Source of the DNA: an uncultured Fibrobacteraceae bacterium
Lineage (GTDB): Bacteria; Krumholzibacteriota; Krumholzibacteriia; LZORAL124-64-63
DNA length: 64,000 nucleotides
Assembly: GCA_964420395.1 (NCBI GenBank)
Contig: CAYQTJ010000004.1
Location: 2,506-66,505, forward strand
Direction of reading: 5' to 3'
Position numbers and translations under genes: made by a program. Below the pieces are notes generated by a model that did not search any database, had not been told where the DNA came from, and saw nothing but the letters and a program-made list of their open reading frames with translations. Below, one piece after another: positions 15,153 through 30,476 of this stretch; within the stretch, counting starts at the first letter, position 1; each line of letters opens with the position of its first letter.

Positions 15153-15203
15153 CCTGCCGTAGCGACCAGCCGGCGATCGAGCCGCCAGGACAAGGAGCGC
15201 CGC

Positions 15204-16505: not shown

Positions 16506-17139
16506 CGACCTGGCGCGGAGCGCCGGCCGACCCGCCCTCGAGGTGGGGTGCGGCGACGGACGCTTCAGCGCCGTGCTCGCGGCCCACGGGGCGCGCCCGT
16601 GGCGGCTCGACCGTCTGCCGCCGCGCCGGGGCACGGTGGCCGACGCCGTGGCCGACGCGCGCGCGCTGCCGCTGGCGGACGGGAGCCTGGGGCTGCTGGT
16701 CGCCGCCAACCTGCTGCGGCACCTCTGGTCGCCCCGCGGCCCGGAGGCGGTGCCCGAGGATTGGCTCCGCTGCATCGCCCCCGACGGCCGGCTCTGGATC
16801 TTCGAGGACGAGCCGGTGTCGCGGCCGCCGGCCGCGCGGCACTACCGGGACGCGATGACCCTGCTGGCGAGGCTCGACCCGGGAGGGCGCCGGCCGCTGC
16901 TGCCGCTCGGCCGGTTCCTGGCGCGGCTGGACGCGGCGGGACGAAGGGACGGCTGGAGGCACGGCATGGCGGTCAACGCCACGCCCGCGGCGGCGCCCGG
17001 AGCGCTGGCGGAGCTGCTCGCCGGGCAGGGGGGTGGGCCCGAGGCGCCCGGCGTCCGGCTGGCGGCCGCCATCCGGCGCGAAGGCCTCAGCTACGGGCCG
17101 TACTGGTGGGCGCGCTGGAGCCGGGAGGAGTCGGCGTGA
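16471..17139 (+). CDS. Class I SAM-dependent methyltransferase
   Basis: Motif I LEVGCGDGRFS and …LLVAANLLRHL…. The start is uncertain: ATG 16471 overlaps the upstream gene by 35 nt. Confidence 0.6.
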   Translation: MSFSPLPAIFLDDLARSAGRPALEVGCGDGRFSAVLAAHGARPWRLDRLPPRRGTVADAVADARALPLADGSLGLLVAANLLRHLWSPRGPEAVPEDWLRCIAPDGRLWIFEDEPVSRPPAARHYRDAMTLLARLDPGGRRPLLPLGRFLARLDAAGRRDGWRHGMAVNATPAAAPGALAELLAGQGGGPEAPGVRLAAAIRREGLSYGPYWWARWSREESA

Positions 17140-18470
17140 ACGGCTGGCGACGTCGGGGGGCGGGACTGGCGGCCGGGGGGGCGGCGCTGCTGCTGGGCGT
17201 GGCCGGCCTGCTGCTGGACGGCCCCCGGGGCCTGGTGGACTGGCGCGCCGCGCGCGTGGTGGTCCTCGAGAGCGACGACTGGGGCCTGAGCGGCTTCTTC
17301 CCGGAGAGCGCGCCGGCCGCCCCGGCGCGGGCCCTGCTCGGCGGGGGCTTCCCGGCCCCCTATTGGGACTCGACGCTCGAGGACAGCCTCGATGTGGCGT
17401 CCCTGGCCGCGCTCCTGGCGAGGCACGTCGGGCGGGACGGCCTGCCGCCGGTCCTGCAGGCGAACATGATCGTCTCCGCCCTGGAGCCTGAGCGGGCGGA
17501 GGGGGACGCCGCCGCGCCGCTCGCCTGGCGGCGGATCGACCTGCCCGACCTGCCGCGCGGCTACCCGCGCCCCGGCCTGGCCGCGGCGGTGGACGCGGCG
17601 ATCGCCGCGGGGGTCTGGCGGCCCGAGTTCCACGGCGCCTTCCACTACGATCCCGCCCGCCGCCGCGCGGCGCTGGAGTCGCGTCCCGATCTGCGCCCGT
17701 TGCTCGAGGAGACGGTGCTGTTTCCCGGCAGCGACACGGCGTGGGAATTGGGGGCCTGGCGGGCCACCGGGGAGTTGCGGGCGGAACTGGCCGCGGCCGT
17801 GGCGGTCTTCACGGCCCGCTTCGGCCACCGCCCGGTGTCGATCTGCGCGCCCGACTACGTCTGGGATCCCCGTTGCGAGGGGCTGTGGGCGGAGCAGGGG
17901 CTGACGGTGATCCAGGCCAAGCGCGAGCAGCGCGACTCCCGCCGGCCGGGGGGCGGGCCGGCGGCGCGGTTGCGCAAGGTGCTCGGGCGTGCCTGGGATC
18001 GCTGGCGCCACCCGGAGCGGCTCTACCTCGACCGCAATTGCCGGTTCGAGCCGGCGCAGGCGGCCGACAGCGCGGCCGCCGTGGCGGGCTGTGTCGCCGC
18101 GGTCCGGCGGGCCTGGGCTCGCGGCGAGCCGGCCGTCATCGAGACCCACCGCGTGAACTTCGTCAGCCTCGCCCCCGGGGCCGCCGCGCGGGGGCGGCGC
18201 CAACTCGACCTCCTGCTGGCTGCCCTGGCGGCCGAGCCGGGGGGAGGGCCCCTCTATCTGACCGATGCCGAACTGGCCCAATTGGCGCGGGGAGGCACCT
18301 GCCTGGCGTGGCGCGGCGACCGCGTCGTGCTCCGCAACCTGACCCGCGGGACCCGCGTGGCGACGATTCCCGGCCCGGCGGGCGGGGCGGACTCGCTGCT
18401 GGCGATCGCCCCCGGGACCACGCTCGTCCGGCGGGCCGCGGGGGGCCATTTGCGGGCGCCCCGACGGTGA
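17136..18470 (+). CDS. Hypothetical protein with an N-terminal membrane anchor, in the glycan cluster (possibly a deacetylase/glycoside-hydrolase-like fold; not established)
   Basis: GTG 17136 overlaps the methyltransferase stop (GTGA). It is the C-terminal 444 aa of track ORF 16548..18470. The sequence is non-repetitive. Confidence 0.5.
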   Translation: MNGWRRRGAGLAAGGAALLLGVAGLLLDGPRGLVDWRAARVVVLESDDWGLSGFFPESAPAAPARALLGGGFPAPYWDSTLEDSLDVASLAALLARHVGRDGLPPVLQANMIVSALEPERAEGDAAAPLAWRRIDLPDLPRGYPRPGLAAAVDAAIAAGVWRPEFHGAFHYDPARRRAALESRPDLRPLLEETVLFPGSDTAWELGAWRATGELRAELAAAVAVFTARFGHRPVSICAPDYVWDPRCEGLWAEQGLTVIQAKREQRDSRRPGGGPAARLRKVLGRAWDRWRHPERLYLDRNCRFEPAQAADSAAAVAGCVAAVRRAWARGEPAVIETHRVNFVSLAPGAAARGRRQLDLLLAALAAEPGGGPLYLTDAELAQLARGGTCLAWRGDRVVLRNLTRGTRVATIPGPAGGADSLLAIAPGTTLVRRAAGGHLRAPRR

Positions 18471-18474
18471 GGAA

Positions 18475-18504
18475 TTGACCCGCCGTCCCTGCTTGTGATA
18501 TCCT
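18475..18504 (+). promoter_or_regulatory. sigma70-like promoter (TTGACC-18 nt-TATCCT, with TG two nt upstream of the -10) for the first C25 gene
   Basis: Read directly, 5 nt after the upstream stop. It implies a leader of about 245 nt before ATG 18754. Confidence 0.4.
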
Positions 18505-18753
18505 AATAACCAGATCCGGATTCTGGGGAATCTCACCCGCTTTCCTCGGGACCCGGGCCTGCGCCAGTCAAGACAGCGGGCGCGCCGGGCGCGCCGATGA
18601 GACAGCAACCAGCGCTGGACCGGCGGGCTGGTGCCCCGGCCCATTCGCCATCCCGATCGCGCGGCATGCAGGATCCACGTCGTCTCCGGCCGGGCCGGAG
18701 GCAGCTCCCCTGCCGTAGCCCTATCGCCCACCCCCGTCGTTCGGAGGCCGCGG

Positions 18754-21700
18754 ATGAGATTGCGCCCCGCTCTCCTGGCCCTGTTCCTCTGGGTGATGCC
18801 GGCCCTCACCATCACGCTCTGTTCGAGCCCGCGGGAGGCGTGCGGCGCCGTCTCCGGTAGCGGCGCTCAGCTGCGCCAGGAGGTCACGTTCCCCCTTTCC
18901 CGCTCCGGATGGCCGGTGGCGGGGGAGGTCGGCGCCGCGCTGCTCACCGACGAACCGGGCGATCCGCGGGTGCCTTACCACGACGTCGTGCTGCTGCTCC
19001 CGCCGGGGCGGCGGGTCGCGGAGGCACGCTTCGCTCCTCGCGATCCGAGCGAGCGGGAACTGCCGGCGGCGGTGGTCACCGCGGCCCCGGCGCGGGTTTC
19101 CGCCGGGGGCGAGGTGGCCTGGGACCGGCTGCCGGCCGACGGGCCGGCGTATCCGCCGGCCTGGGGGGAACTGCTGGGCGAGACGGTCTGGCACGGCTAC
19201 CGCCTGGCCCACGTACGGCTCTACCCCTGGCAACTGACGCGGGGGGGCACGGGGACGTGGGACGGCGCACGCGCCGCAGCGGGGATGACGATCGAACTGG
19301 CGCTGGCTCCCGTGGCGGACGGCGGCGGTCGCCGGCGCCCGGCGCCGGAGCCGGACGCCGCGCTCAGGGCGCGGCTGCGGGGGCTGGTGGCGAATCCGGA
19401 CGCCGTCGCCGCCTACCCGCTGCCGGGCGTGGCGGCGGCGCGGGATGGCGCCGGCTTCTCGCCGACCTGGGCGCCGAGCCTGCTGGGCGACGATGTGGCC
19501 TACGTGATCATCACGAGCGCCGCGCTCGCGGCGGAGTTCCAGCGCCTGGCCGATTACAAGACCGCGCGGGGCGTCCCGACGGTCGTGCGCACGATCGAGG
19601 CGATCGTCGCCGCGGCGCCGGCCGGGATCGATCTGCCGGCGCAGATCCGCGCCTATTGCGCCGAGGCATACCGCGACTGGGGGACGACGGCTGTCCTGCT
19701 GGGCGGCGACACGCAGATCGTGCCGACGCGACGGATCCTCAACACGCTATATCCCGCGGGCGAGGGGACCGAGATGCCCGTGGACCTCTACTTCGCCTGC
19801 CTGGACGGGGACTGGAACGCCGACCACGACGAGAAGCTCGGCGAAGCCTACATGAATCCCTACGATTCGGGTGACTGGGCCGATCTGGCGGCCGAACTGG
19901 CGGTCGGGCGGGCGCCGGTCGCCACGGCGGCGGAGGCCGCCGTGTTCGTGGACAAGGTCATGGCCTACGAGGGGGGAACCGTCGCCGCGCCGGCTGGCCG
20001 CGCCCTCTTCCTGAGCGAAGTGCTCTTCCCGAGCGCCTGGACCGTCGGCACCCCCATCACCGACGACGGCGCGACGTACAGCGAGGCGATCATCAACGAA
20101 GTCATGGCGGAGTCGCCCATGCCCCCGGCGGCGACGCGGATGTACGAGGCGACCGCGCTCTGGCCCGGCTCGGTCCCCGAGCGGCGCCTCGCGGTGATCG
20201 ACTCGCTCAACACCGGGCACTTCGGGCTGGTCAACCACATCGGCCACGGTTTCTTCTACAACCTGTCCGTGGGCGATGCGACGCTCGATCTGAAGGATGC
20301 CGCCGGGGTCCACAACGACCCGAGCTACTTCATCCTGAACAGCCTCAACTGCTCCTCGTCCGCCTTCGACTACAACAGCATCCTCGAGCGGCTGGTGCTG
20401 AATCCGGGAGGCGGCGCCGTGGCCACGATCGGCTCGGCGCGCGCCGCCTTCCCGACCACCGCCAGCCAGTACCAGCGGGAGTTCTACGCCGCGCTGTTCC
20501 GCGACGGGATCCGGGAGGTGGGCGCAGCGGTGGCGGCCTGCCGCCTGCCTTTCCAGGGGCTGACCGCCGGGAACACGCCGGAGCGCTGGACGCACATGAC
20601 CCTGACGCTGCTCGGCGATCCGACGCTGGCGGTCTGGACCGCGCCGCCGGTGCCTCTCGTGGTCAGCGCGCCGGACACCCTGCCGCTCGGCGGGCAGGAG
20701 GTCGTCGTGAAGGTGACCCGCGGCGGGCTGGCCGTGGCGGGGGCCATGGTCTGCCTGCTCAAGACGGGCGAGTGCTACGCGCGCGGCTACACCGATGCGG
20801 GCGGGGAGGCCCGCCTGCCGGTCGTGGTGAAGTCGGCGGGGGCCGTCGCGCTGAGCGTGACGGCGGCCGACTCGCGCCCCGCGACGCGGACCCTGCCGGT
20901 GAGCGTCGCGCCGAGCCCGTACCTGAAGGTGACCTCGGTCCAGTTCCGGGATGACGGCACGCTCGGCTCGGTCGGCAACGGCGACGGCCTGCCGGATGCC
21001 GGCGAAACGGTGGCGTTGCTGCCGACCTTCACGAACAGCGGGACGGTCCTGGCCACCGGCGCGGTCTCGATGTCGGCATGGACCCTGACCCCGGGGGCGA
21101 CGCTGCTGTCGACCGCGACCGCCGTGCCGCCGCTGGCGCCCGGCGCGTCCGCGGTCGGCGGGAGCCCGCTGCTGCTGCGTCTCGAGGCCGGCGTGCCGGA
21201 CGGCACCCTGTTCACGGTGCAACTGGCCGCCATCGACGGCGGGCGGGTCTACTTGGACGAGATCTCCGAGCGGGGACGCGCGCCCGACCTGCGGCCGACG
21301 ATCATGACGTGGAGCGACTCGCCCGGGGGGGACGGCGACGGCGTGATCGAGCCCGACGAGGAGATCGTGCTGCGCGTGACGCTCCTGAATCCAGGCGGCG
21401 GGCGGGCCTCCGGCCTGACGGCCACCGTCGAGCCGGGAATCGGACTGACGGTGGTGGATGGCAGCGGCGCCTGGCCCGACATCGCGCCGGGGGGCGAGGC
21501 GACTCCGTCCGACGCGGTGAGCGTGCGCCCCGCCTCGCCGGTGTCGGCCGCCCGCGGCACGCTGGTCGTGCAGGACGCCTTCGGACACGAGTGGCGCCAG
21601 CGCTTCGACCTCACGCCGCCCGAACGGCCGACGGGAGTGACCGGCACCTCGCCCGCCGGCGGGGAGTGCCTCCTGCTCTGGACGCCGAACCCGGAGGCGG

Positions 21701-23562
21701 ACCTCTACGGGTATCACGTCTACCGGTCGCTGCAGCCGAATTACGGCTACGTGCGGCTCACCGCGGAACCGGTCACGGGCGGGAGCTTCTACCGCGACAC
21801 CGGACTCGCCGCGCTCACCCGGTACTACTATCAGATCGCCGCCGCCGACTCGTCGCGGCTGCTGAGCCGCGTCACCTCGACGCTCGGCGTCAGCACGGTG
21901 CCGTCGGAGCAGACCGGCTTCCCGATCGAGCTGCCCGCGGAGACGTCGAGCCATCCGGTCGTCGGAGACGTCAACGGCGACGGCCGGCTCGACGTGGTGC
22001 TGCCGGCCAATTACATCTACGTGTGGGACGCGGATGGGGTGGAACTGCGGAACGGCGACGGCGACAGCCAGACGCTCGGCCCCTTCAACTCCACGGCCGC
22101 CGACTGGGCGCCGGCCGGTGCCACGCTGGCCAACCTGACCAGCCGTCCGGGGCTGGAGATCATCGCCTCGAATCGCACCGCGCGGCAGATCTTCGTCTAC
22201 CAGGGGGACGGCACGGTGGCCGCGGGCTGGCCGCGCACGATGAGCGACTGGAACTGGGCGACGCCGGTGGCGGGGGATCTCGACGGGGACGGCGACCTGG
22301 AGGTCATCGCGAACACCGTCACGGGGACGCTCTACGTCTGGCACCACGACGGCACGGACTTCTTCGACGGCGACGCCAACCCCGCCACGGTCGGGGTGTT
22401 CCAGGTGCGCGTCAACGAGTGGTACAGCTTCTGCTCGCCGGCGCTCGCCGACCTCGACCAGGACGGGAAGCTGGAGATCATCCTCGGCACCCGCTACAGC
22501 GGCACGACGCCGGACGTGCTGATGGCGCTGCGCAACGACGGCACGAACCTGCCCGGCTTCCCGGTCAGCTTCGGCCTCTACGGCGAGACGCTCTGCAGCC
22601 CGGCCGTGGGCGATCTCGACCTGGACGGGCGGCTGGAGATCGTGGTGGTCACCGAGAACGATCGCCTGCAGGTCATCCGGCACACCGGGCTGTCGATGGC
22701 GCCGTTCCCGATCCTCTTCGTCTCCAACAACAACCCCGACGGGCTGAGCACCCCGTCGCCGGCGCTCGCCGACCTCGACGGCGACGGCTATCCGGAGATC
22801 GTGGCGGTGTCGGTCACCGACGCGCTGACCGCCGCGGTGCACGCGGTCAGGCGGACCGGCGTCAACCTGTCCGGCTGGCCGCGGGCGGTGGGGGGGAATT
22901 CGGAATCGTCGCCGGTGGTGGCGGACATCAGCGGCGACGGGCATCCGGACGTCCTGTTCGGCATCGGCGGCGGGGCCGACAGCAGCCCCAACGCGCTCTA
23001 CGCGTGGCGCCACGACGGCGGCGTGGTGCCGGGATTCCCGCTGCAGCTCAGCGGGCCGATCCGCCCGACCCCCTGCCTGACGGACCTGAACCAGGACGGG
23101 GACATCGACCTCGTCTACGGCGGCTGGGACCTGCAGATGCACGTCTGGGACCTGCCGGCGGCCTGGAATCCCGACCTGGCGTTCTGGCCCACCTTCAAGG
23201 GCAATCCGCTGCGCAGCGGCCTGGCCGGCCAGCTGTGGATCACCGCCGTGCCCGGGGGGGAGGACGGCGCCCCGCCGGCGGCGGTCGCGCTCGAGGGGAA
23301 TCGGCCCAACCCGTTCAATCCGCGCACGCGGATCACCTTCGCCCTGCCCGGCCCCGGCGCGGTCCGGGCCCGGCTGACCATCTACGACCTGCGGGGGCGG
23401 CGCGTGGCGCAGCTGGTGGACGGCTCCCTGCGGCCCGGGCGCCACACCGTCGACTGGTACGGGCGCGACGACGGGGGCGGGGCGGTCGCCAGCGGGGTCT
23501 ATCTCTGCCGGCTGACGGCCGGCGGGGTGGTGACGGAGCGCAAGATGACCCTGGTGCGGTGA
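18754..23562 (+). CDS. Secreted multidomain protein: gingipain-like peptidase C25 domain, Ig/FN3-like modules, DxDxDG (FG-GAP/VCBS-type) repeat region and a FlgD-Ig/T9SS-like C-terminal domain
   Basis: Signal peptide MRLRPALLALFLWVMPALT…. C25-like …LLGGDTQIVPTR…DLYFACLDGDWNAD…, catalytic-type NHIGHGFF and LNSLNCSSSAFD. Seven clear xDxDxDGxxE/D repeats. C-terminus NPFNPRTRITF…LTIYDLRGRRV…SGVYLCRL. Start at ATG 18754 after GGAGG. Confidence 0.85.
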   Translation: MRLRPALLALFLWVMPALTITLCSSPREACGAVSGSGAQLRQEVTFPLSRSGWPVAGEVGAALLTDEPGDPRVPYHDVVLLLPPGRRVAEARFAPRDPSERELPAAVVTAAPARVSAGGEVAWDRLPADGPAYPPAWGELLGETVWHGYRLAHVRLYPWQLTRGGTGTWDGARAAAGMTIELALAPVADGGGRRRPAPEPDAALRARLRGLVANPDAVAAYPLPGVAAARDGAGFSPTWAPSLLGDDVAYVIITSAALAAEFQRLADYKTARGVPTVVRTIEAIVAAAPAGIDLPAQIRAYCAEAYRDWGTTAVLLGGDTQIVPTRRILNTLYPAGEGTEMPVDLYFACLDGDWNADHDEKLGEAYMNPYDSGDWADLAAELAVGRAPVATAAEAAVFVDKVMAYEGGTVAAPAGRALFLSEVLFPSAWTVGTPITDDGATYSEAIINEVMAESPMPPAATRMYEATALWPGSVPERRLAVIDSLNTGHFGLVNHIGHGFFYNLSVGDATLDLKDAAGVHNDPSYFILNSLNCSSSAFDYNSILERLVLNPGGGAVATIGSARAAFPTTASQYQREFYAALFRDGIREVGAAVAACRLPFQGLTAGNTPERWTHMTLTLLGDPTLAVWTAPPVPLVVSAPDTLPLGGQEVVVKVTRGGLAVAGAMVCLLKTGECYARGYTDAGGEARLPVVVKSAGAVALSVTAADSRPATRTLPVSVAPSPYLKVTSVQFRDDGTLGSVGNGDGLPDAGETVALLPTFTNSGTVLATGAVSMSAWTLTPGATLLSTATAVPPLAPGASAVGGSPLLLRLEAGVPDGTLFTVQLAAIDGGRVYLDEISERGRAPDLRPTIMTWSDSPGGDGDGVIEPDEEIVLRVTLLNPGGGRASGLTATVEPGIGLTVVDGSGAWPDIAPGGEATPSDAVSVRPASPVSAARGTLVVQDAFGHEWRQRFDLTPPERPTGVTGTSPAGGECLLLWTPNPEADLYGYHVYRSLQPNYGYVRLTAEPVTGGSFYRDTGLAALTRYYYQIAAADSSRLLSRVTSTLGVSTVPSEQTGFPIELPAETSSHPVVGDVNGDGRLDVVLPANYIYVWDADGVELRNGDGDSQTLGPFNSTAADWAPAGATLANLTSRPGLEIIASNRTARQIFVYQGDGTVAAGWPRTMSDWNWATPVAGDLDGDGDLEVIANTVTGTLYVWHHDGTDFFDGDANPATVGVFQVRVNEWYSFCSPALADLDQDGKLEIILGTRYSGTTPDVLMALRNDGTNLPGFPVSFGLYGETLCSPAVGDLDLDGRLEIVVVTENDRLQVIRHTGLSMAPFPILFVSNNNPDGLSTPSPALADLDGDGYPEIVAVSVTDALTAAVHAVRRTGVNLSGWPRAVGGNSESSPVVADISGDGHPDVLFGIGGGADSSPNALYAWRHDGGVVPGFPLQLSGPIRPTPCLTDLNQDGDIDLVYGGWDLQMHVWDLPAAWNPDLAFWPTFKGNPLRSGLAGQLWITAVPGGEDGAPPAAVALEGNRPNPFNPRTRITFALPGPGAVRARLTIYDLRGRRVAQLVDGSLRPGRHTVDWYGRDDGGGAVASGVYLCRLTAGGVVTERKMTLVR
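21950..23130 (+). other. FG-GAP/VCBS-like calcium-binding repeat region (likely beta-propeller) within the first C25 protein; boundaries approximate
   Basis: Repeats GDVNGDGRLD, GDLDGDGDLE, ADLDQDGKLE, GDLDLDGRLE, ADLDGDGYPE, ADISGDGHPD, TDLNQDGDID at roughly regular spacing. Confidence 0.6.
23299..23559 (+). other. C-terminal FlgD-Ig-like / T9SS-type sorting-domain-like module of the first C25 protein
   Basis: NRPNPFNPRTRITFALPG…ARLTIYDLRGRRVAQLVDG…GRHTVDWYGRDDGG…ASGVYLCRLTAGG…KMTLVR. Confidence 0.6.
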
Positions 23563-23567
23563 GGGAA

Positions 23568-23601
23568 CGGGGCGCGGCCATTGACCGCGCCCCGCTTCTC
23601 T
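23568..23601 (+). terminator. Rho-independent-type terminator after the first C25 gene
   Basis: 10-bp GC stem (CGGGGCGCGG / CCGCGCCCCG), 7-nt loop, then CUUCUCU. The loop and 3' arm contain the -35 hexamer of the next promoter. Confidence 0.5.
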
Positions 23602-23609
23602 GGTAAAAT
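23581..23609 (+). promoter_or_regulatory. Near-consensus sigma70-like promoter (TTGACC-17 nt-TAAAAT) for the second C25 gene
   Basis: Read directly. An AT-rich -10 stands out in a GC-rich background. It implies a leader of about 240 nt before ATG 23854. Confidence 0.55.
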
Positions 23610-23853
23610 GGACGAAGTCACACCGGAGTGGGGCGCCGTCGGCGCCGCCGCTCCGCTACCACCTCCCGGAGGGCTGGACGACCGCACCTGGGTAACGGGC
23701 AGCAGTGGCGGGCCGGCAGGGCCGGCCCCGCATTGGCAGCAGCGTTCACAGTCCCCCGAGGAGGCATCCGTTTCCTCACGCAGAAGTCGATGAAGACACG
23801 TGCTTCTCGCGGCTCCGGCCGCGAGTTACGTCGCTATTGACCGGAGGGTATGC

Positions 23854-26800
23854 ATGGATCGCCATCGCCTGATGAGCCGCATCAGCCTGACCGTCGCGAC
23901 GGCCGCGGCGCTGACCTGGGGGACCGTGGCCCTCGGCGCCGGGGCCCCCGCCGCCTTCTTCGAGGGGAGGATCACCGGCGAGCTCTCGTGGGAAACGAAC
24001 GCCTCCGGGGCGGTGACGCCCCGCCTCGCCGGCGGTCGGGCCTGGGCCGAGACGGATCGGCCCGCGCTGGCGGTGCTCGACCTGCGCCTGCTGGTGCCGC
24101 TGGAGGCGGCGCCGGGCGGCGTCGAGGTGGTGCCCCTGGCGACGCACCGCGTGCGGGTGCCGGGGCGGCTGGCCGTCGGTTCGCCGCTCATCAGCAGCGA
24201 CGGGGTCGCCGTGGTCGCGGCCCGGCTCCCTCTGGACGGGGCGGTCTTTCCGGCGCAGTGGGGCGAATTCGGCGGCACGCAGGTCTGGCGGGGCTTCCGT
24301 CTCGCGTCGGTGCGGGTCTACCCGCTGCGGGCCGTGCGTGACGCGGCGGGCGAGTGGAGCGAACTCGAGGTGCTCGACAGCTACGCCATCCGGTTCCTGC
24401 CGGGCGGCGGCAAGCTCGCGGCGGGGGACGCCGCGGAGATCGCCGTGCGCGAACGTCGGGTGCCGGGCGAGCGGGCGCGCGCCGAGGCGGCGCTGGCCGG
24501 CCTGATCGCGAACCCCGGAGGGCTGTCCGGCTACGCGCGCGCCGACGGTGCGGTCGTGGCGGAGCCGGCGGGGGGCTTCGCGCCGAGCCAGACCCCCAGC
24601 CTGGAGGGGAGCCCGGTCCGTTACCTGATCATCACCCGGGAGGCGCTGGCCCCGGCCTTCCAGCGCCTGGCCGATCATCGCACCGCCCTGGGGGACCCTG
24701 CGGTCGTGCAGACGGTGGAGTGGATCGAGGCCAACTACCGCCACGGCGCGGATGTCCAGGAGACGATCCGGCTCTTCATCCGCGAGGCCTATCAGCGCTG
24801 GGGTGTGGAGTACGTCCTGCTCGGCGGCGACACCGACGTGGTCCCGGCCCGCTACATCCACAGCGAGTACTATCCCCCCTCGTCCAGCACCGACGTGCCG
24901 ACCGACCTCTATTTCGGGTGCCTGGACGGGAACTGGAACGCCGATGCCGACGATCTCTTCGGCGAGCACTACGCCAGCTATCTGAATCCCGGCGACAACG
25001 CCGATCTCGCCGACGAGGTGCGGGTGGGGCGCGCCCCGGTCAGCACCGTGAACGCGGTGAACGCGTTCATCGACAAGGTCATCGGCTACGAGCAGCAGGT
25101 GGCGGGGACGGGCTGGCCCAACCGGATGCTGTTCGCCGCGGAGGTGCTGTTCCCGGCCGACTACACCGCGGGGGCGACGATCACCCTCGACGGCGCGAGC
25201 TTCGCCGAGCAGTTGAACAACACCGCGCTCACCCCCTGCACCGGGATGACGCCGACGCGGCTTTACGAGTCGTATCCGCTCTGGCCCGGCTCGACGCGCC
25301 TCTCGCGCGCGGCGTTCACGGACTCCGTCAATACCGGTCACTTCGGCATCGTGAACCAGATCGGTCACGGCTTCTTCGTCAACATGTCGCTGGGCGACGC
25401 CAATTTCACCGTCGCCGACGCCGACGGATTGCACAACACGGGGCGCCCGTTCCTGCTCTATGCCCTCAACTGCGCCTCCGCGGCGTTCGACTACGCCTGT
25501 CTGATGGAGCGCTTCGTGCAGAATCCCAACGGCGGCGCGGTCGCGGCGATCGGCGCGGCCCGGGCCGCGTTCCCGTATACGGCGAACGACTATCAGATTG
25601 AGTTCTTCCGGCTGCTGTTCTGCAACGGCATCCACCGGCTGGGCGACCTGATGAGCCTCAGCCGCCTCCCGCAGCTGGCAGACACCTACTACAACACGGC
25701 CGACCGCTGGACCTTCCTGAACTACACGCTGCTCGGCGACCCCGGCCTGGCGGTGTGGACCGGTGCTCCGCGGCCGGCGAGCGTGGCGGCTCCCGCCTCC
25801 CTCACGGCCGGCGCCCAGTCGGTGACGGTGACCGTGACGGCCGACGGCCTGCCGGTCGAGGGGGCGCTCGTCTGCCTGAGCAAGGAGGGCGACGACTACG
25901 CCTCGGACTTCACGGATGCCGCGGGCCAGGTCTCCCTCGCCTACACCCCGGTCAGCGCCGGCGCGGCCAGCCTGGTCGTAAGCGGAGCGGGGCTGGCCCG
26001 CGAGGCGCGCGATCTGCCGGTGACGGTCCCCGGCGCGTACATCGCGCTCGACGCGGTGACGATCACCGATGACGGCTCCGCCGGCAGCAGCGGCAACGGG
26101 GACGGGCGCTTCGACGCCGGCGAGACGGTGGCGGTGGTCACCCAGTATCGCGACACCGGCACGGGGGGGGCGCTGAACTGCCTCGCCACTCTCAGCGGGG
26201 GGGCGGCCGGCCTGACCATCCTGGACGGCACGGCCAGCGTCGGCAACGTGCCGTCGGGCAGCGTCAAGGCGGCCACGGAGCCGTTCCTGGTGCGTGCCGA
26301 CGCCGCCCTGCCCGACGGTCTGCACGTGGCGTTCTCGGTCACGGTGACCGCGCAGGCCGGGGGGCCGTTCGCCAGCGAGTGGAATCCGGTCGTGCTGGCG
26401 CCGGAGCTGGCGCCGATCGCGCTGACCTGGTCGGACCTGGTCTACGGCAACGGGGACGGCGTGCAGCAGAACGGCGAGCGGATCACCGTGGCGGTGAAGC
26501 TCAAGAACTACGGCGACGGGCTGGCCGGGGCGATCACCGGGCGGCTGCGCAGCATGGACCCGGGCGTGGTCCTGCGCGACACCGTCGCGTCCTACGGCAC
26601 GCTGGCGCTGCTGCAGGAAGGGACCGGATCGGTGCCGTTCTCGCTGTCGGAGACGGACGTCAGCGTCGACCACCCCTGCTGGATCCTCTTCAGCGATCCG
26701 CAGGGGCGCACGGTGCGGCACGACTTCGTACTGAACGCGCCGGCGGCGCCGGCGGCGCCGGCGACCAGCGGCACGCTCGGGCCCGACGTCATCGGCCTGA

Positions 26801-28725
26801 CCTGGGCGCCGGTGACGACCCCGCACCTGCGCGGCTACCACGTCTACCGCGGCACCAGCGCCGGCGGTCCGTTCGTGCGGGCGAACGCCGACCTGGTCGA
26901 GCGCACGTCCTACTTCCGCGACTCCGGTCTCGCCCTGCTGACCCAGTACTTCTACCGGATCGCGGCGGTGGACTCCTCGCTGGTGGAGGGGCCGTTCTCG
27001 GCCGTGGTCTCGCAGAGCACCGCACCGCCGGAAATGGGCGGCTTCCCGCTGCCCATGACTAAGGAGACGAGCGGCCACAACGCCGTCGGCGACGTGGACG
27101 GCGACGGCACGCTCGAGGTCGTGCTCGGGGCGGACGAGGTCTACGTCTGGACCGCCGGCGGTGGCGAGCTGCGCGACGGTGACAACGACGCCCAGACGCT
27201 CGGGCCGTTCACGAACATGTCCAGCGGCACCACGAATCTGAGCTTCTCGCCGTCCGGCATCACCCTGGCCGATCTGGACGACGTACCGGGGCTCGAGATC
27301 ATCGCCAGCGAGAGGGTCCAGAACAAGATCCACATCTTCCGCCGGGACGGCAGCGAACTGCCGGGCTGGCCGCGGTCCCTGGTCGGCACGAGCTGGAACT
27401 GGACCACGCCCGCGGTCGGCGACGTGGACGGCGACGGCGCCCCGGAGATCGTCTGCAACGACATCGCCGGCCGCACCTTCGCCTGGCACCTCGACGGCAC
27501 GGAACTGAGGGACGGCGACAGCAATCCCGCCACGCTCGGCGTGTTCGTGGCGCGCGCCGGCGCGACCTACGAGTATGGCTTCAGCTCGCCCGCGCTGTGC
27601 GACCTGGACGGTGACGGGCGCAAGGAGATCATCTTCGGCTCGAAGCTCTCCGGCGTGCCCAACTACCTCTACGCCTATCGCTACGACGGCAGCCAGGCGA
27701 CCGGCTTCCCGTTCGCGACCGGCAACCTCGGCGCCATCGGGTGCAGCCCCAGCCTTGGAGACCTCGACAACGACGGTCAGCGGGAGATCGTCTTCGTGTC
27801 GGAAGCCGACTCGCTCTATGTCCTGCGGCGGAACGGCAGCCGCTATCCCGGCTTCCCGATCTGGTTCACCGCCAACAGCACCAGCAGCGGCGCCTCCTGT
27901 CCCAGCCCGGCGCTGGCCGACTTCGACGGCGACGGGCGGCTGGAGATCGCGGCGGTGACGGTCACGAACGCCGCGAGCGCGGCCCTGCGGCTGATCGACA
28001 CCGACGTCGCGGGCGGCACCTCCGGCCAGACCATGCCGGGCTGGCCGAAGAGCCTGCCGGGCAACTCGGAGTCCAGTCCCCTGGCGGGGGACATCGACGG
28101 CGACGGCGGCATCGACATCGTGTTCGGGATCGGCGGGGGCGACGAATCGACCCCCAACAACATCTACGCCTTCGAGGCGAGCGGCGCCGCGGTGCCTGGC
28201 TTCCCGATCACCGTCGGGGGGCCGATCCGGCCCTGCCCCGTGCTGTGCGACCTCGACGGGGACGGCAAAGTCAACATCGTCTATGGCGGATGGGACCTGC
28301 AGGTCCACGTCTGGAACCTGCCGTTCGCCTACGATCCGGATCTGATGCCGTGGCCCACCTTCCGCGGCAGCCACTGGCGCGACGGCGTCTACCGGCAGCC
28401 CACCCTGACCGGTGCGCCGGGGGAGGCGCCTCCGGCGGCGCTGGCCGTGGCGCCGAACTTCCCGAACCCGTTCAATCCCGTCACGACGGTGCGGCTCAAC
28501 GTGCCGGGCCCGTCCGGGCAGAGCGTGCCGCTCGGCCTGCGGGTGTACGACCTGCAGGGGCGGCTGGTGCGCGTCCTGCACGCCGGCCCGGCCGCGACCG
28601 GCTGGCGGACCTGGATCTGGGACGGTCGCGACGGCGCCGGGCAGCCGCAGGCGAGCGGCGTGTACCTGCTCCGGGCCGAAGCGGGCGGGCAGGTGCGGAC
28701 GCAAAAGATGGCCCTGGTGAAATGA
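23854..28725 (+). CDS. Secreted multidomain protein, divergent paralog of 18754..23562 (C25 peptidase domain, Ig/FN3-like modules, DxDxDG repeat region, FlgD-Ig/T9SS-like C-terminal domain)
   Basis: Signal peptide MDRHRLMSRISLTVATAAALTWGTVALGA. …LLGGDTDVVPARY…DLYFGCLDGNWNAD…, NQIGHGFF, ALNCASAAFD. Seven to eight DxDxDG repeats. C-terminus NPFNPVTTVRL…LRVYDLQGRLV…SGVYLLRA. ATG 23854 after GGAGGG. Confidence 0.85.
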   Translation: MDRHRLMSRISLTVATAAALTWGTVALGAGAPAAFFEGRITGELSWETNASGAVTPRLAGGRAWAETDRPALAVLDLRLLVPLEAAPGGVEVVPLATHRVRVPGRLAVGSPLISSDGVAVVAARLPLDGAVFPAQWGEFGGTQVWRGFRLASVRVYPLRAVRDAAGEWSELEVLDSYAIRFLPGGGKLAAGDAAEIAVRERRVPGERARAEAALAGLIANPGGLSGYARADGAVVAEPAGGFAPSQTPSLEGSPVRYLIITREALAPAFQRLADHRTALGDPAVVQTVEWIEANYRHGADVQETIRLFIREAYQRWGVEYVLLGGDTDVVPARYIHSEYYPPSSSTDVPTDLYFGCLDGNWNADADDLFGEHYASYLNPGDNADLADEVRVGRAPVSTVNAVNAFIDKVIGYEQQVAGTGWPNRMLFAAEVLFPADYTAGATITLDGASFAEQLNNTALTPCTGMTPTRLYESYPLWPGSTRLSRAAFTDSVNTGHFGIVNQIGHGFFVNMSLGDANFTVADADGLHNTGRPFLLYALNCASAAFDYACLMERFVQNPNGGAVAAIGAARAAFPYTANDYQIEFFRLLFCNGIHRLGDLMSLSRLPQLADTYYNTADRWTFLNYTLLGDPGLAVWTGAPRPASVAAPASLTAGAQSVTVTVTADGLPVEGALVCLSKEGDDYASDFTDAAGQVSLAYTPVSAGAASLVVSGAGLAREARDLPVTVPGAYIALDAVTITDDGSAGSSGNGDGRFDAGETVAVVTQYRDTGTGGALNCLATLSGGAAGLTILDGTASVGNVPSGSVKAATEPFLVRADAALPDGLHVAFSVTVTAQAGGPFASEWNPVVLAPELAPIALTWSDLVYGNGDGVQQNGERITVAVKLKNYGDGLAGAITGRLRSMDPGVVLRDTVASYGTLALLQEGTGSVPFSLSETDVSVDHPCWILFSDPQGRTVRHDFVLNAPAAPAAPATSGTLGPDVIGLTWAPVTTPHLRGYHVYRGTSAGGPFVRANADLVERTSYFRDSGLALLTQYFYRIAAVDSSLVEGPFSAVVSQSTAPPEMGGFPLPMTKETSGHNAVGDVDGDGTLEVVLGADEVYVWTAGGGELRDGDNDAQTLGPFTNMSSGTTNLSFSPSGITLADLDDVPGLEIIASERVQNKIHIFRRDGSELPGWPRSLVGTSWNWTTPAVGDVDGDGAPEIVCNDIAGRTFAWHLDGTELRDGDSNPATLGVFVARAGATYEYGFSSPALCDLDGDGRKEIIFGSKLSGVPNYLYAYRYDGSQATGFPFATGNLGAIGCSPSLGDLDNDGQREIVFVSEADSLYVLRRNGSRYPGFPIWFTANSTSSGASCPSPALADFDGDGRLEIAAVTVTNAASAALRLIDTDVAGGTSGQTMPGWPKSLPGNSESSPLAGDIDGDGGIDIVFGIGGGDESTPNNIYAFEASGAAVPGFPITVGGPIRPCPVLCDLDGDGKVNIVYGGWDLQVHVWNLPFAYDPDLMPWPTFRGSHWRDGVYRQPTLTGAPGEAPPAALAVAPNFPNPFNPVTTVRLNVPGPSGQSVPLGLRVYDLQGRLVRVLHAGPAATGWRTWIWDGRDGAGQPQASGVYLLRAEAGGQVRTQKMALVK
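27070..28295 (+). other. FG-GAP/VCBS-like repeat region within the second C25 protein; boundaries approximate
   Basis: GDVDGDGTLE, GDVDGDGAPE, CDLDGDGRKE, GDLDNDGQRE, ADFDGDGRLE, GDIDGDGGID, CDLDGDGKVN. Confidence 0.6.
28453..28722 (+). other. C-terminal FlgD-Ig-like / T9SS-type sorting-domain-like module of the second C25 protein
   Basis: PNFPNPFNPVTTVRLNVPG…LRVYDLQGRLVRVLH…WIWDGRDGAG…ASGVYLLRAEAGG…KMALVK. Confidence 0.6.
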
Positions 28726-28755
28726 CCCGGCGGCGGGCCGACGTCACGCCGCCGG

Positions 28756-28784
28756 TTGACGGCGCGGCGCCCGCTCCTTAGCAT
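28756..28784 (+). promoter_or_regulatory. sigma70-like promoter (TTGACG-17 nt-TAGCAT) upstream of the ABC substrate-binding protein gene
   Basis: Read directly. Preceded by an 8-9 bp hairpin (28727-28755) after the C25 stop. Confidence 0.4.
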
Positions 28785-28856: not shown

Positions 28857-30476
28857 ATGGGCGGACGACGGGCCACGTCGCTGGCGCTGGGGGTGGCGCT
28901 GGCCGCGCTGGCCGCGCTGGGGGGCGGCGGCTGCGGTGGCGGGGGGGGCGCGGGGCCGCGCGCCGGCGGCACCGCCATCCTCGCCCTGGCGGCCGAGCCC
29001 GATCTCCTCAATCCGCTGCTCACCGGCTCCGCCTACGCGACGCAGCTGCTGGGGCTGATGCAGGACGGGCTGATCGAGATGGACGAGGACCTCGAGTTCC
29101 GTCCCCGCATCGCCAGCGGCTGGACGTTCGCTCCGGACAGCCTCTCCGTGACTTTCCGGCTGCGACCCTGGGTCTGGTCCGACGGCGAGCCGCTGACCGC
29201 GCGCGACGTGGCGGCGAGCTTCGCCCTGCTGACCGATCCGGTCATCGCCAGCCCGCGTCGCGGGGGGCTGGCGAACGTCACCGCGGTGACGGCGCTGGAT
29301 CCGGCCACGGTGCGCTACGACTTCCGGAGCCGCCGCCCGCGAACGGAGGCGCTGTTCGCCGCGGCGCACGCGCTGCTGCCGGCGCACCGGACCGCCACGC
29401 TGGAGCCTGCCCGGGTGCGGGAGTGGCCGCTCAATCAGCAACCGCTCTCCTCCGGTCCGTACCGGCTCGAGAGCTGGCAGCGCAACCGCCAGGTGGTGCT
29501 GACGCGCAACGAACGCTATCCCGGACCGCGGCCGCGGCTCGATCGACTCGTCTTCCGGATCATTCCGGACGAGACGTCGCGGCTGATCGAGTTGGAAACG
29601 GGCGGCGTCGATTTCGTGGACGAGATCCCGCCGCAGGCGGCCCGCGCCCTGGCGGCCTCGGGCCGGGCTACGGTGCTGCGGGTTGGCGGCCGGCTGGTGG
29701 GGCAGGTGCAGTGGAACCTGCGCAGTCCCCTGCTGGCCGACCGCGCGGTCCGCCGCGCCCTCTCGTTCGCCATCGATCGCGCGGCGTTCATCGACGGCCT
29801 GCTGTGCGGTTACGGGGCGCCGGCGGCGAGCCCCATCCCGCCCTGCCTCTGGGCCCACGACGCCTCGCTGCTGCCCGACCGCCACGAGCCGCAGCGGGCG
29901 CGTGACCTGCTCGACTCCGCCGGCTGGCGCGACAGCGACGGGGACGGCGTGCGCGAGCGGGATGGCCGCCGCCTGTCGCTGCTGCTGATCACCCGCAAGG
30001 GCGACCCGGTGCGGGAGGACGGCGCGGCGCTGATCGCGGCGAACCTGCGGTCGGTGGGGGTGGAGGTGCGCCCGCGGATCCTCGAATTCGGGGCGGCGCT
30101 CGACGAGGTGCGGCAGGGCCGCTTCGACGGCTACCTCGGCTATTTCCAGCCGCGGCTGGTGCCCGATCCCTCGGCCCAGTTGCGCTCCGACGCCACGGAC
30201 CGCTTCAACTACGGCAGCTACGCGAGCGCCGCCGTCGATTCCCTGCTCGACGCCGCGCTCGCCTGCCCCGACCGGGCCCGCGCCGCACCGCTCTGGCACC
30301 GCCTGCAGCGGATCGTGGCGGAGGACGCGCCGTTCGCCTTCCTCTTCTACCCGGAAACGCTCTGCGGCGTCGGCCCGCGCCTGCGGGGGGTGCGCCCGCA
30401 CGTGCTGTCGCCGTTCAACAACGTGGGCGAATGGTGGATCGGCTCGCCGGACCGCGAGGCGAAGGCCGGGCATTGA
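28857..30476 (+). CDS. ABC transporter substrate-binding protein, family 5 (peptide/nickel, DppA/OppA-like), lipoprotein
   Basis: Lipobox …ALAALGGGG-C-GGG. Family-5 SBP similarity along the full length (…LNPLL…, …RNERY…, …FDGYL…). Confidence 0.8.
   Translation: MGGRRATSLALGVALAALAALGGGGCGGGGGAGPRAGGTAILALAAEPDLLNPLLTGSAYATQLLGLMQDGLIEMDEDLEFRPRIASGWTFAPDSLSVTFRLRPWVWSDGEPLTARDVAASFALLTDPVIASPRRGGLANVTAVTALDPATVRYDFRSRRPRTEALFAAAHALLPAHRTATLEPARVREWPLNQQPLSSGPYRLESWQRNRQVVLTRNERYPGPRPRLDRLVFRIIPDETSRLIELETGGVDFVDEIPPQAARALAASGRATVLRVGGRLVGQVQWNLRSPLLADRAVRRALSFAIDRAAFIDGLLCGYGAPAASPIPPCLWAHDASLLPDRHEPQRARDLLDSAGWRDSDGDGVRERDGRRLSLLLITRKGDPVREDGAALIAANLRSVGVEVRPRILEFGAALDEVRQGRFDGYLGYFQPRLVPDPSAQLRSDATDRFNYGSYASAAVDSLLDAALACPDRARAAPLWHRLQRIVAEDAPFAFLFYPETLCGVGPRLRGVRPHVLSPFNNVGEWWIGSPDREAKAGH

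What the first reader, a model, noticed from the sequence alone, without database searches (positions are those of the whole stretch)
18475..28725. Tandem, deeply diverged pair of about 1,600-aa secreted C25-protease / DxDxDG-repeat / FlgD-Ig-tail proteins as separate transcription units
Two adjacent genes occupy about 10 kb and encode the same architecture. Each has a signal peptide and a gingipain-like C25 domain with His (GHGFF) and Cys (LNC[SA]S) catalytic-type motifs. These are followed by Ig/FN3-like modules, seven or more DxDxDG calcium-binding-type repeats (likely a propeller) and a C-terminal NPFNP…Y(D/L)…SGVYL… domain of the FlgD-Ig/T9SS-sorting type. The proteins align colinearly but are strongly diverged; I see only short identical stretches such as GWDLQ[MV]HVW.LP, which indicates an old duplication kept in tandem. 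Each copy has its own promoter, and a terminator sits between them. The -35 hexamer of the second promoter lies inside the terminator hairpin of the first gene (23568-23609), an unusually compact terminator/promoter overlap. A protease fused to a propeller suggests a surface-displayed enzyme with a ligand-recognition module. Substrates and the reason for two copies are unknown.
Basis: partly seen in the sequence, partly recalled or inferred. Interest (0 to 1): 0.6.

Follow-up and report, generated by a model that had tools for sequence, protein, structure and literature searches.

The report
Paired gingipain-like surface proteases with propellers
Two neighbouring genes of an uncultured Krumholzibacteria-type bacterium encode large secreted cysteine proteases of the gingipain (C25) family, each fused to an eight-bladed calcium-type propeller and a secretion tail. 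They are real and tidy, but they belong to a gene family that databases already annotate.

Summary
Gene A (18754-23562, 1602 aa) and gene B (23854-28725, 1623 aa) share one layout: signal peptide, gingipain-type prodomain, C25 catalytic domain, Ig-like domain, two beta-sandwich modules, FN3, an 8-bladed FG-GAP propeller and a T9SS type-A/FlgD-Ig C-terminal domain. The catalytic His and Cys are invariant in 41 homologues and align with RgpB His211/Cys244. The modelled N-terminal part matches RgpB at TM 0.84.

About 105 full-length homologues exist. Those that carry names are called "C25 family cysteine peptidase" or "T9SS type A sorting domain-containing protein", from Candidatus Krumholzibacteria and Latescibacteria MAGs. 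A tree separates an A clade from a B clade. The tandem pair sits in the same syntenic block in six other genomes, so the duplication is old. Two close relatives lost gene A and its upstream gene through a deletion between 11-nt microhomologies.

Sigma-70-like promoters lie just after the stop codon of each preceding gene, here and in distant relatives. The hairpin that contains the second -35 is real but has no U-run, so its terminator function is unproven. No T9SS machinery gene lies in the window, so the export route remains inferred. Verdict: an ordinary new member of a known kind.

The parts
17136..18470 (+). Conserved unknown gene (444 aa, N-terminal membrane anchor) directly upstream of gene A. 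Its GTG start overlaps the stop of the methyltransferase gene (GTGA).
   Evidence: Orthologues precede the first C25 gene in L005 and L010-L015. Invariant motifs are ESDDWG, HxxxHxDP, APDYxW and ETHRVN. No Pfam, NCBIfam or PDB match. It was lost together with gene A in L001/L002.
18475..18504 (+). Sigma-70-like promoter of gene A (TTGACC, 18 nt, TATCCT, with TG extension).
   Evidence: Both hexamers are identical in L010 and L011. Promoter-like sites occupy the same position in L005, L012 and L013.
18505..18753 (+). Predicted 5' leader of gene A, about 245 nt.
   Evidence: Distance from the -10 to the ATG at 18754. 88% column identity with L010/L011. No Rfam match.
18754..23562 (+). Gene A: a 1602-aa C25 / FG-GAP / CTD protein. 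Residues: signal peptide 1-~31; prodomain-like 38-190; C25 catalytic 250-626; IgSF 627-720; two beta-sandwich modules 721-945; FN3 946-1047; propeller 1048-1490; CTD 1515-1602.
20245..20247 (+). Codon of the catalytic His498 of A (within GHG).
   Evidence: Invariant G497-H498-G499 in 41 homologues. Aligned with RgpB His211. Codon checked.
20350..20352 (+). Codon of the catalytic Cys533 of A (within LNC).
   Evidence: Invariant in 41, 46 and 99 sequences. Aligned with RgpB Cys244 and the PorU active-site Cys column. Codon checked.
21895..23223 (+). Eight-bladed FG-GAP beta-propeller of A, with 7 canonical DxDxDG loops and 1 degenerate blade.
   Evidence: AF2 model with pLDDT 93.3 and pTM 0.83; DSSP shows 8 repeats of the blade pattern. 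Best PDB match is the designed 8-blade Cake8 (TMt 0.86), followed by Bap1, integrin alpha, CRTAC1 and ITFG2. Motif count.
23296..23559 (+). C-terminal beta-sandwich domain of A (T9SS type-A / FlgD-Ig type).
   Evidence: FlgD_ig scores 31.7 bits against a cut-off of 27. TIGR04183 scores 21.6 bits, just under its cut-off of 23. PNPFNP, invariant G1548 and the KMxLV(K/R) C-terminus are present.
23569..23593 (+). GC-rich hairpin 6 nt after the stop of A. A possible terminator or 3'-end stabiliser with no U-run.
   Evidence: Conserved in L001, L002 (one mismatch), L010 and L011, but not in L003.
23581..23609 (+). Sigma-70-like promoter of gene B (TTGACC, 17 nt, TAAAAT, with TG extension). Its -35 lies in the loop and 3' arm of the hairpin.
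   Evidence: Both the -35 and -10 are kept in L001, L002, L003, L005, L010 and L011 while neighbouring bases vary. Sites at the same position occur in L005, L012 and L013.
23610..23853 (+). Predicted 5' leader of gene B, about 240 nt.
   Evidence: 80% column identity across 6 loci. The alifold structure has a long-range stem and UUCCUC:GGAGG(SD) pairing, with almost no covariation. Its covariance model finds only close relatives.
23854..28725 (+). Gene B: a 1623-aa paralogue with the same architecture. Catalytic His505 is at 25366-25368 and Cys540 at 25471-25473.
   Evidence: TIGR04183 scores 29.4 bits against a cut-off of 23. Peptidase_C25_C scores 26.5 bits against 25.
28728..28784 (+). Hairpin CCGGCGGCG/CGCCGCCGG after the stop of B, abutting the promoter-like site of the SBP_bac_5 gene (28756-28784).
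   Evidence: The fold z-score is -0.9, not distinct from shuffles of this GC-rich sequence.

Best explanation
Genes A and B are ancient paralogues of a Krumholzibacteria/Latescibacteria-wide family of gingipain-like (MEROPS C25) cysteine endopeptidases.

Proposed mechanism, step by step:
1. Each protein is made with a Sec signal peptide (inferred from sequence).
2. It folds as a zymogen in which an N-terminal prodomain covers a caspase-like catalytic domain with a His/Cys dyad. The fold, the prodomain homology and the dyad are shown here. Inhibition by the prodomain is inferred from gingipains.
3. It is exported across the outer membrane by means of its C-terminal beta-sandwich domain of the T9SS type-A kind, and is released or anchored on the cell surface (inferred).
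4. The rigid stalk of Ig-like, beta-sandwich and FN3 modules and the eight-bladed, calcium-loop FG-GAP propeller act as a spacer and a binding module that bring the protease to a polymeric or particulate substrate. The fold is shown; the role is inferred.
5. The peptides produced probably feed uptake. A family-5 oligopeptide-type binding protein gene follows gene B in all eight syntenic loci that extend beyond it, which is weak contextual support.

The two genes are transcribed from separate sigma-70-type promoters placed just after the preceding stop codon, each followed by a long leader. The copies kept the catalytic and propeller parts (51-53% identity) and diverged in the prodomain and middle modules (26-30%). 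This pattern fits sub-specialisation in regulation or substrate.
For: - Family membership: Pfam Peptidase_C25 full length, E ~1e-60.
- Profile against PDB: RgpB E 4e-26, Kgp 7e-14, Kgp prodomain 5mun 9e-8, with the GHG and Cys columns aligned. G497-H498-G499 and C533 are invariant.
- Structure of residues 1-725: AF2 pLDDT 89. Foldseek gives RgpB TMt 0.84, Kgp 0.78 and RgpB prodomain chains TMt 0.48.
- Structure of residues 1048-1602: AF2 pLDDT 93, an 8-blade propeller plus beta-sandwich.
- Tail: FlgD_ig and TIGR04183 hits. The same tail occurs on unrelated cargo fragments (P_proprotein, CBM_6, UnbV_ASPIC) named T9SS type A sorting domain. The conserved Gly and the Lys in the last strand match the CTD motifs described in PMC11285876.
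- Family size: about 105 full-length homologues with the same domains.
- History: A and B clades and a conserved tandem locus.
- Transcription: promoters.
- Divergence pattern: per-domain identities.
Against: - No T9SS machinery gene lies in the 64-kb window, and the rest of the genome could not be searched.
- The tail of A scores just below the TIGR04183 cut-off.
- The S1 specificity residue and the third catalytic residue could not be assigned. Invariant E422 lies 2 alignment positions from RgpB Glu152, and RgpB Asp163 falls in an alignment gap.
- No activity, localisation or expression data exist, and the literature search found nothing on this family.
- The whole 40-kb neighbourhood is syntenic, so adjacency to the SBP_bac_5 gene may carry no functional meaning.
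Confidence: 0.7

Rival explanations
1. The proteins are not digestive proteases but parts of the secretion apparatus. In this reading they are a PorU-like C-terminal signal peptidase/sortase fused to a PorZ-like propeller, attaching other CTD cargo to a surface glycan made by the neighbouring Wzy_C / glycosyltransferase genes.
For: - With a single sequence, the only PDB hit is PorU 6za2, with His and Cys aligned.
- The best NCBIfam hit for B, and the second best for A, is the PorU sortase model.
- PorZ (propeller plus CTD) appears among the fold matches (rank 50).
- The gene sits in a phylum-wide conserved core block beside Wzy_C, GT1, GT4 and methyltransferase genes, which is unusual for a nutritional protease.
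Against: - The PorU model scores 92-99 bits against a cut-off of 420 and covers only the catalytic core. The PorU2 model scores 35-45 bits against 450.
- The family profile and the fold are much closer to RgpB and Kgp (E 4e-26, TMt 0.84) than to PorU (E 1.4e-16, TMt 0.19).
- A gingipain-type prodomain is present.
- The propeller is of the FG-GAP/integrin type, and PorZ is a weak match (TMq 0.28).
- Close relatives have lost copy A, and one lineage keeps only a B-type copy.
- The synteny extends over housekeeping genes, so it does not argue for functional linkage.
Confidence: 0.1
2. The C-terminal domain is only a structural Ig-like module. On this view the lineage has no T9SS, and the proteins stay in the periplasm or leave the cell by another route such as lysis, vesicles or type II secretion.
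For: - No T9SS gene in the window.
- The tail of A is below the TIGR04183 cut-off, and both tails also match FlgD Ig-like models.
- T9SS outside Bacteroidota is described only as 'may also be present' in the paper consulted (PMC11285876), and Krumholzibacteriota is not named there.
Against: - The domain is always at the extreme C-terminus.
- It carries the conserved Gly and last-strand Lys motifs.
- It recurs on unrelated cargo domains with Por_Secre_tail (PF18962) hits in Eisenbacteria and Krumholzibacteriia proteins.
- B passes the curated TIGR04183 cut-off.
Confidence: 0.15
3. The proteins are adhesins whose protease domain is catalytically dead. The propeller and Ig/FN3 modules would be the functional parts.
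For: A related NCBIfam family that combines FG-GAP repeats with a type-A tail is described as an 'inactivated' metalloprotease. Long stalks of Ig-like modules are typical of adhesins.
Against: - His498, Cys533 and the flanking Gly residues are invariant, or nearly so, in up to 99 homologues down to 23-29% identity.
- The catalytic domain is, with the propeller, one of the two most conserved parts.
Confidence: 0.05

Closest known systems
Gingipains RgpB and Kgp of Porphyromonas gingivalis (MEROPS family C25; PDB 1cvr, 4ief, 4rbm, 5mun)
   Same: - Same order of parts: signal peptide, N-terminal prodomain, caspase-like catalytic domain, IgSF domain, then further modules and a C-terminal T9SS domain.
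- His/Cys dyad in GHG and xxC motifs at aligned positions.
- Fold match TMt 0.84 (RgpB) and 0.78 (Kgp); prodomain match by profile (E 9e-8) and by fold.
   Different: - About 18% sequence identity.
- The accessory region is two beta-sandwich modules, FN3 and an 8-bladed FG-GAP propeller, rather than nothing (RgpB) or haemagglutinin/adhesin domains (Kgp and RgpA; from established knowledge).
- The host is an environmental Krumholzibacteria-type MAG.
- S1 specificity residues were not assignable.
- The family is present as a core, syntenic gene across a whole class.
PorU, the T9SS C-terminal signal peptidase/sortase (PDB 6za2; NCBIfam NF033707)
   Same: A C25-type catalytic core with aligned His and Cys, and a C-terminal T9SS-type domain.
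   Different: Scores 92-99 bits against a cut-off of 420. Fold TMt is 0.19. PorU has a different N-terminal region and no FG-GAP propeller.
FG-GAP / integrin-alpha-type calcium-loop propellers: V. cholerae biofilm protein Bap1 (6mlt), CRTAC1 (9etn), ITFG2, integrin alpha
   Same: The same repeat family (Pfam FG-GAP_3 at 99-103 bits) with DxDxDG loops. The propeller fold matches at Foldseek E 1e-9 to 1e-11.
   Different: Here the propeller follows a protease and precedes a secretion tail. The ligand is unknown. Integrin alpha has 7 blades (from established knowledge), against 8 here.
NCBIfam NF052323, 'T9SS-dependent M6-like inactivated metalloprotease'
   Same: Its C-terminal part (profile positions ~783-1028 of 1043) aligns with the last FG-GAP blades plus the tail of A and B (81-95 bits local). 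This shows that the propeller-plus-type-A-tail cassette is shared with other predicted T9SS cargo.
   Different: The enzyme module is different (M6 metalloprotease rather than C25). The score is far below the cut-off of 600.

Membership tests
Peptidase family C25 (gingipain family) | Match to the family model above the curated threshold, over the whole catalytic domain | tested here: met
   PF01364 scores 205.7 and 203.2 bits against a cut-off of 23, covering profile positions 1-373 of 374.
Peptidase family C25 (gingipain family) | Catalytic His and Cys at the active-site positions of RgpB (His211, Cys244) | tested here: met
   The profile alignment places the invariant GHG (H498 in A, H505 in B) on RgpB YTGHGS, and the invariant C533/C540 on RgpB DVAC.
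Peptidase family C25 (gingipain family) | Caspase-like alpha/beta catalytic fold followed by an Ig-like domain | tested here: met
   AF2 model pLDDT 89. Foldseek gives RgpB TMt 0.84 (E 5e-24) and Kgp catalytic+IgSF TMt 0.78. Peptidase_C25_C passes its cut-off in B.
Peptidase family C25 (gingipain family) | N-terminal inhibitory prodomain (zymogen) | tested here: inconclusive
   Homology is seen with the family profile (Kgp prodomain 5mun, E 9e-8, profile positions 28-186) and in the fold (RgpB prodomain chains, TMt 0.48, E 6e-5). There is no single-sequence Pfam hit. Inhibition and removal of the prodomain cannot be tested here.
Peptidase family C25 (gingipain family) | Endopeptidase activity and P1 specificity (Arg or Lys) | not testable with these tools
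   The S1 Asp of RgpB (Asp163) falls in an alignment gap. No biochemical data exist.
T9SS type-A C-terminal-domain cargo | Match to TIGR04183 (Por_Secre_tail) above its cut-off, at the extreme C-terminus | tested here: inconclusive
   B scores 29.4 bits against 23 (met). A scores 21.6 bits against 23 (just missed). Both matches end within 4 residues of the C-terminus. Several homologues are named 'T9SS type A sorting domain-containing protein' by NCBI.
T9SS type-A C-terminal-domain cargo | Seven-strand beta-sandwich with a conserved Gly at the beta3-beta4 loop and a Lys in the last strand | tested here: met
   The model shows a beta-sandwich of about 7 strands (residues 478-553 of the model, pLDDT 81-95). 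G1548 is invariant, and the C-terminus is K-M-x-L-V-K/R. The motifs are those described in PMC11285876.
T9SS type-A C-terminal-domain cargo | The same tail on many unrelated proteins of the lineage | tested here: met
   97 tail-only matches, many of them also hitting PF18962, sit on fragments with P_proprotein, CBM_6 or UnbV_ASPIC domains from Eisenbacteria and Krumholzibacteriia.
T9SS type-A C-terminal-domain cargo | T9SS machinery (SprA/Sov, PorV, PorK-N, PorU) encoded in the same genome | not testable with these tools
   None is found in the 64-kb window.
PorU (T9SS sortase) | Match to NF033707 above its curated cut-off | tested here: not met
   92.5 and 98.9 bits against a cut-off of 420, covering only the catalytic core. 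The PorU2 model scores 35-45 bits against 450. Fold TMt is 0.19.
FG-GAP / integrin-alpha-type beta-propeller | FG-GAP repeats with DxDxDG calcium-type loops that close into a propeller | tested here: met
   FG-GAP_3 scores 103 and 99 bits against 26.9, and FG-GAP scores 65 and 40 bits against 22.1. There are 7 canonical loops plus 1 degenerate blade. The 8-blade model has pLDDT 93, with best match Cake8 at TMt 0.86. Calcium binding itself was not tested.

The most novel reading that the evidence does not exclude
The family may not be a nutritional protease. It could be a core envelope-maturation enzyme of Krumholzibacteria: a single polypeptide combining a PorU-like CTD peptidase/transpeptidase with a PorZ-like propeller. 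Such an enzyme would process or anchor surface proteins onto the glycan made by the adjacent, phylum-wide syntenic genes (Wzy_C, GT1, GT4, methyltransferase and the 444-aa unknown). The A and B copies would serve different cargo classes.
Probability: 0.1. Interest if true: 0.6.

Novelty: new member of a known kind. Interest (0 to 1): 0.3.

Why it matters
Gingipains are studied almost only as virulence factors of one oral pathogen. This locus shows that the full gingipain zymogen layout (prodomain, catalytic domain, IgSF domain, C-terminal sorting domain) is a conserved core feature of an uncultured environmental phylum, and that it is coupled there to an integrin-like eight-bladed propeller. 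That gives a defined target for biochemical work on protein degradation by Krumholzibacteria in soils and sediments. It also gives a natural pair of paralogues for asking how accessory modules steer a C25 protease. The finding does not open a new category, because databases already annotate the family automatically.

Tried and rejected
- Rfam at gathering thresholds over the whole window, and at E <= 1 on both leaders, gave nothing credible. The best match was Pseudomonas sRNA P17 on the opposite strand, 18.5 bits against a threshold of 45.
- Leader A and leader B do not align convincingly with each other.
- A covariance model of the conserved core of leader B (R1) found only the six close relatives it was built from. 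It did not find leader A or the leaders in L005 and L012-L015, so there is no evidence for a widespread RNA motif. The alifold stems are almost invariant, with a covariation term of -0.1.
- The 444-aa upstream gene has no Pfam, NCBIfam or PDB relative, even with a 6-sequence profile. My impression that its D-D / HxxxH / H motifs resemble polysaccharide-deacetylase-type enzymes is unverified.
- Single-sequence Pfam on the prodomain and middle regions found nothing.
- PorU membership was rejected on the curated cut-off and on fold.
- Literature searches for Krumholzibacteria with T9SS, C25 or gingipain, and for the C25 + FG-GAP + FlgD combination, found no relevant paper.
- The window's own protein A was not on record for a contig look-up, so the source assembly could not be named. 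The nearest named relative of A (80% identity) is labelled Candidatus Krumholzibacteriia.
- Hairpins around the -35 in distant loci (L005, L012, L013) and after gene B do not differ from shuffled sequence, with z between -1.1 and +0.9. The terminator/promoter overlap is therefore supported only for the window and its close relatives.

Full report
**What is in the sequence.** The window is about 73% G+C, so long spurious ORFs occur in every frame. Only two ORFs in the span show the coding signature, with third-position G+C of 0.93. From the first ATG preceded by GGAGG, gene A is 18754-23562 (1602 aa) and gene B is 23854-28725 (1623 aa). Both begin with a basic stretch followed by a hydrophobic stretch typical of Sec signal peptides; this is read from the sequence and no predictor was run. 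Pfam finds Peptidase_C25 over the whole model in both (E 1.7e-60 and 9.6e-60), FG-GAP_3/FG-GAP repeats and a C-terminal FlgD_ig domain, plus Peptidase_C25_C in B. BLASTP aligns the two proteins colinearly at 45% identity over 1580 residues.

**Protease part.** In an alignment of 41 homologues, G497-H498-G499 and C533 (A numbering) are invariant. C533 remains invariant in 99 sequences that reach down to 23-29% identity. A profile of the family matches gingipain R (1cvr, E 4e-26), Kgp (E 7e-14) and PorU (E 1.4e-16). The GHG column falls on RgpB YTGHGS (His211) and the Cys column on DVAC (Cys244). The same profile matches the isolated Kgp N-terminal prodomain (5mun, E 9e-8) at positions 28-186.

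An AlphaFold2 model of residues 1-725 (pLDDT 89, pTM 0.89) matches RgpB at TMt 0.84 and Kgp catalytic+IgSF at 0.78. It also matches the RgpB prodomain chains of 4ief (TMt 0.48, E 6e-5), and PorU only at TMt 0.19. The whole gingipain zymogen layout is present. I could not assign the third catalytic residue or the S1 specificity residue. Invariant E422 lies two alignment positions from RgpB Glu152, and RgpB Asp163 falls in a gap.

**Middle and C-terminal parts.**
- The family profile matches many FN3 domains at positions ~945-1050. Residues 721-945 contain two repeats of a GNGDG...GE...N.G beta-sandwich-like module that no single-sequence model recognises.
- Each protein has seven canonical DxDxDG loops and one degenerate blade.
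- The model of residues 1048-1602 (pLDDT 93.3, pTM 0.83) shows eight repeats of the blade strand pattern followed by a beta-sandwich. Its best PDB match is the designed eight-bladed Cake8 (TMt 0.86), followed by Bap1, integrin alpha chains, CRTAC1 and ITFG2. PorZ appears only at rank 50.
- The tail passes FlgD_ig in both proteins. It passes TIGR04183 in B (29.4 bits against 23) and narrowly misses in A (21.6).
- The tail carries PNPFNP, an invariant Gly in YDLxGR and a Lys in the final KMxLV(K/R) strand. These correspond to the two CTD motifs shown to matter in P. gingivalis (PMC11285876).
- A search with the last 105 residues of B returned 97 proteins. Many also hit Por_Secre_tail (PF18962), some sit on other cargo domains, and some are named T9SS type A sorting domain proteins from Eisenbacteria or Krumholzibacteriia. 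The tail therefore behaves as a shared sorting module.

**Family and history.** About 105 full-length proteins with the same Pfam composition exist in public data. Where named, they are 'C25 family cysteine peptidase', 'VCBS repeat-containing protein' or 'T9SS type A sorting domain-containing protein', from Candidatus Krumholzibacteria/Krumholzibacteriia and Latescibacteria MAGs. A neighbour-joining tree of 105 sequences separates a clade containing A from a clade containing B, with deeper clades outside both.

The tandem order recurs in six other loci: methyltransferase, 444-aa unknown, A-type, B-type, SBP_bac_5. It occurs in L010 and L011 (80-87% identity) and in L012, L013, L014 and L005 (48-63%), with reciprocal best matches. 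It sits inside a block that is syntenic from PhoH/GlnA to Lon. L015 has only a B-type copy. L003 has the B orthologue in a different neighbourhood.

Two close relatives (L001, L002; 82-85% nucleotide identity) lack exactly window 17152-23526, which is the 444-aa gene plus gene A. The junction falls in an 11-nt microhomology, CGGCTGrCGrC, at 17141-17151 and 23509-23519. A recognisable relic of the last ~45 nt of gene A remains in L001/L002, which shows deletion there rather than insertion here. Between A and B, the catalytic domain (51%) and the propeller (53%) are the most conserved parts. The prodomain (26%) and the middle modules (30%) are the least conserved.

**Transcription signals.** Three sigma-70-like sites were found in 12 kb against 0.2 expected. 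They lie at 18475-18504, 23581-23609 and 28756-28784, each just after a stop codon. The -35 and -10 of the B promoter are kept in six other loci while neighbouring bases vary, and those of the A promoter are kept in L010/L011. In L005, L012 and L013, the promoter-like matches in 17-18 kb fall after the 444-aa gene and after A, and in L005 and L012 also after B. These were the only matches found. This positional conservation is good comparative support for separate transcription units.

The hairpin 23569-23593 is strong (-30.5 kcal/mol, z -3.1), unique in the window and conserved in close relatives. It does contain the -35. It has no U-run and is not called as a terminator, and comparable hairpins in distant loci are not distinguishable from shuffled sequence. 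Both genes have predicted leaders of about 240 nt. Their sequences are conserved only among close relatives, they match no Rfam family, and a covariance model does not extend them.

**Export route.** No T9SS machinery gene is present in the window. All ORFs with coding signature were scanned with Pfam, and most of those without a Pfam hit also with NCBIfam. The paper consulted says T9SS may also be present in several other FCB phyla, but it does not name Krumholzibacteriota. I found no paper on T9SS or C25 peptidases in this phylum.

**Interpretation.** The best-supported reading is a pair of anciently duplicated, separately transcribed, gingipain-like zymogens. They are exported by their C-terminal domain, and a stalk of Ig-like modules ending in an eight-bladed FG-GAP propeller serves as the binding module. 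A PorU/PorZ-like role in cargo attachment is the most interesting alternative. However, the proteins fail the PorU model cut-off (92-99 bits against 420), resemble gingipains far more than PorU in fold, carry a gingipain-type prodomain, and are dispensable in part, since copy A was lost in close relatives. A dead-enzyme adhesin is unlikely given the invariant dyad.

**Verdict.** This is a correct and careful first-stage observation of an ordinary object: a new member of an already annotated but biochemically uncharacterised branch of family C25.

Noticed in passing
window 17152-23526; microhomologies at 17141-17151 and 23509-23519; L001 ~9660-9710, L002 likewise: Two syntenic close relatives lack exactly the 444-aa unknown gene plus gene A. 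The junction lies in an 11-nt repeat, CGGCTGrCGrC. They keep a decayed relic of the last ~45 nt of gene A in front of the conserved hairpin and promoter, so this is a microhomology-mediated deletion in those lineages.
   Followed up: yes
window 17136-18470 (+): A conserved 444-aa protein with an N-terminal membrane anchor and invariant ESDDWG, HxxxHxDP, APDYxW and ETHRVN motifs. It has no Pfam, NCBIfam or PDB relative. Its GTG start overlaps the methyltransferase stop (GTGA). It precedes the first C25 gene in seven other loci and was lost together with gene A in L001/L002.
   Followed up: partly
window 18505-18753 and 23610-23853: Both C25 genes have predicted 5' leaders of about 240 nt. In leader B, a long-range stem (CCUCCCGG...CCGAGGAGG) and a UUCCUC segment able to pair with the Shine-Dalgarno GGAGG are predicted. 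Leaders of 140-350 nt recur in distant loci but their sequence is not conserved. There is no Rfam match and almost no covariation.
   Followed up: partly
window 28728-28784: After the stop of gene B, a 9-bp perfect hairpin (CCGGCGGCG/CGCCGCCGG) directly abuts the -35 of a third promoter-like site, in front of the SBP_bac_5 gene (28857-30476). This repeats the stop-hairpin-promoter arrangement, but the fold is not distinct from shuffles.
   Followed up: partly
window 12557-17139 and loci L012-L015: An envelope-glycan gene set lies directly upstream of the C25 genes in every syntenic genome examined: Wzy_C O-antigen-ligase-like, GT1/GT4 glycosyltransferase, Glycos_transf_4 (WecA/MraY-like) and a methyltransferase. 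The synteny continues over housekeeping genes (GlnA, PhoH, LexA, Lon), so functional linkage is not implied.
   Followed up: partly
L014 15011-21652: In this relative, the second (B-type) C25 gene is called as one 2213-aa product fused to the SBP_bac_5 gene. This may be a lost stop codon or an assembly error.
   Followed up: no
L003 1-22448: A 74%-identical orthologue of B, with its promoter and leader, sits in a different neighbourhood (MFS transporter upstream, M3 oligopeptidase and MatE downstream). No A-type gene lies within 10 kb.
   Followed up: partly
window 60001-64000; 62844-63998 (-): G+C falls from about 0.73 to 0.66-0.68 at the end of the window. An ORF there has weak, sub-threshold similarity to IS1/ISL3 transposases (E 6e-5). 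A PilT/T2SSE-type ATPase lies at 61634-62776.
   Followed up: no
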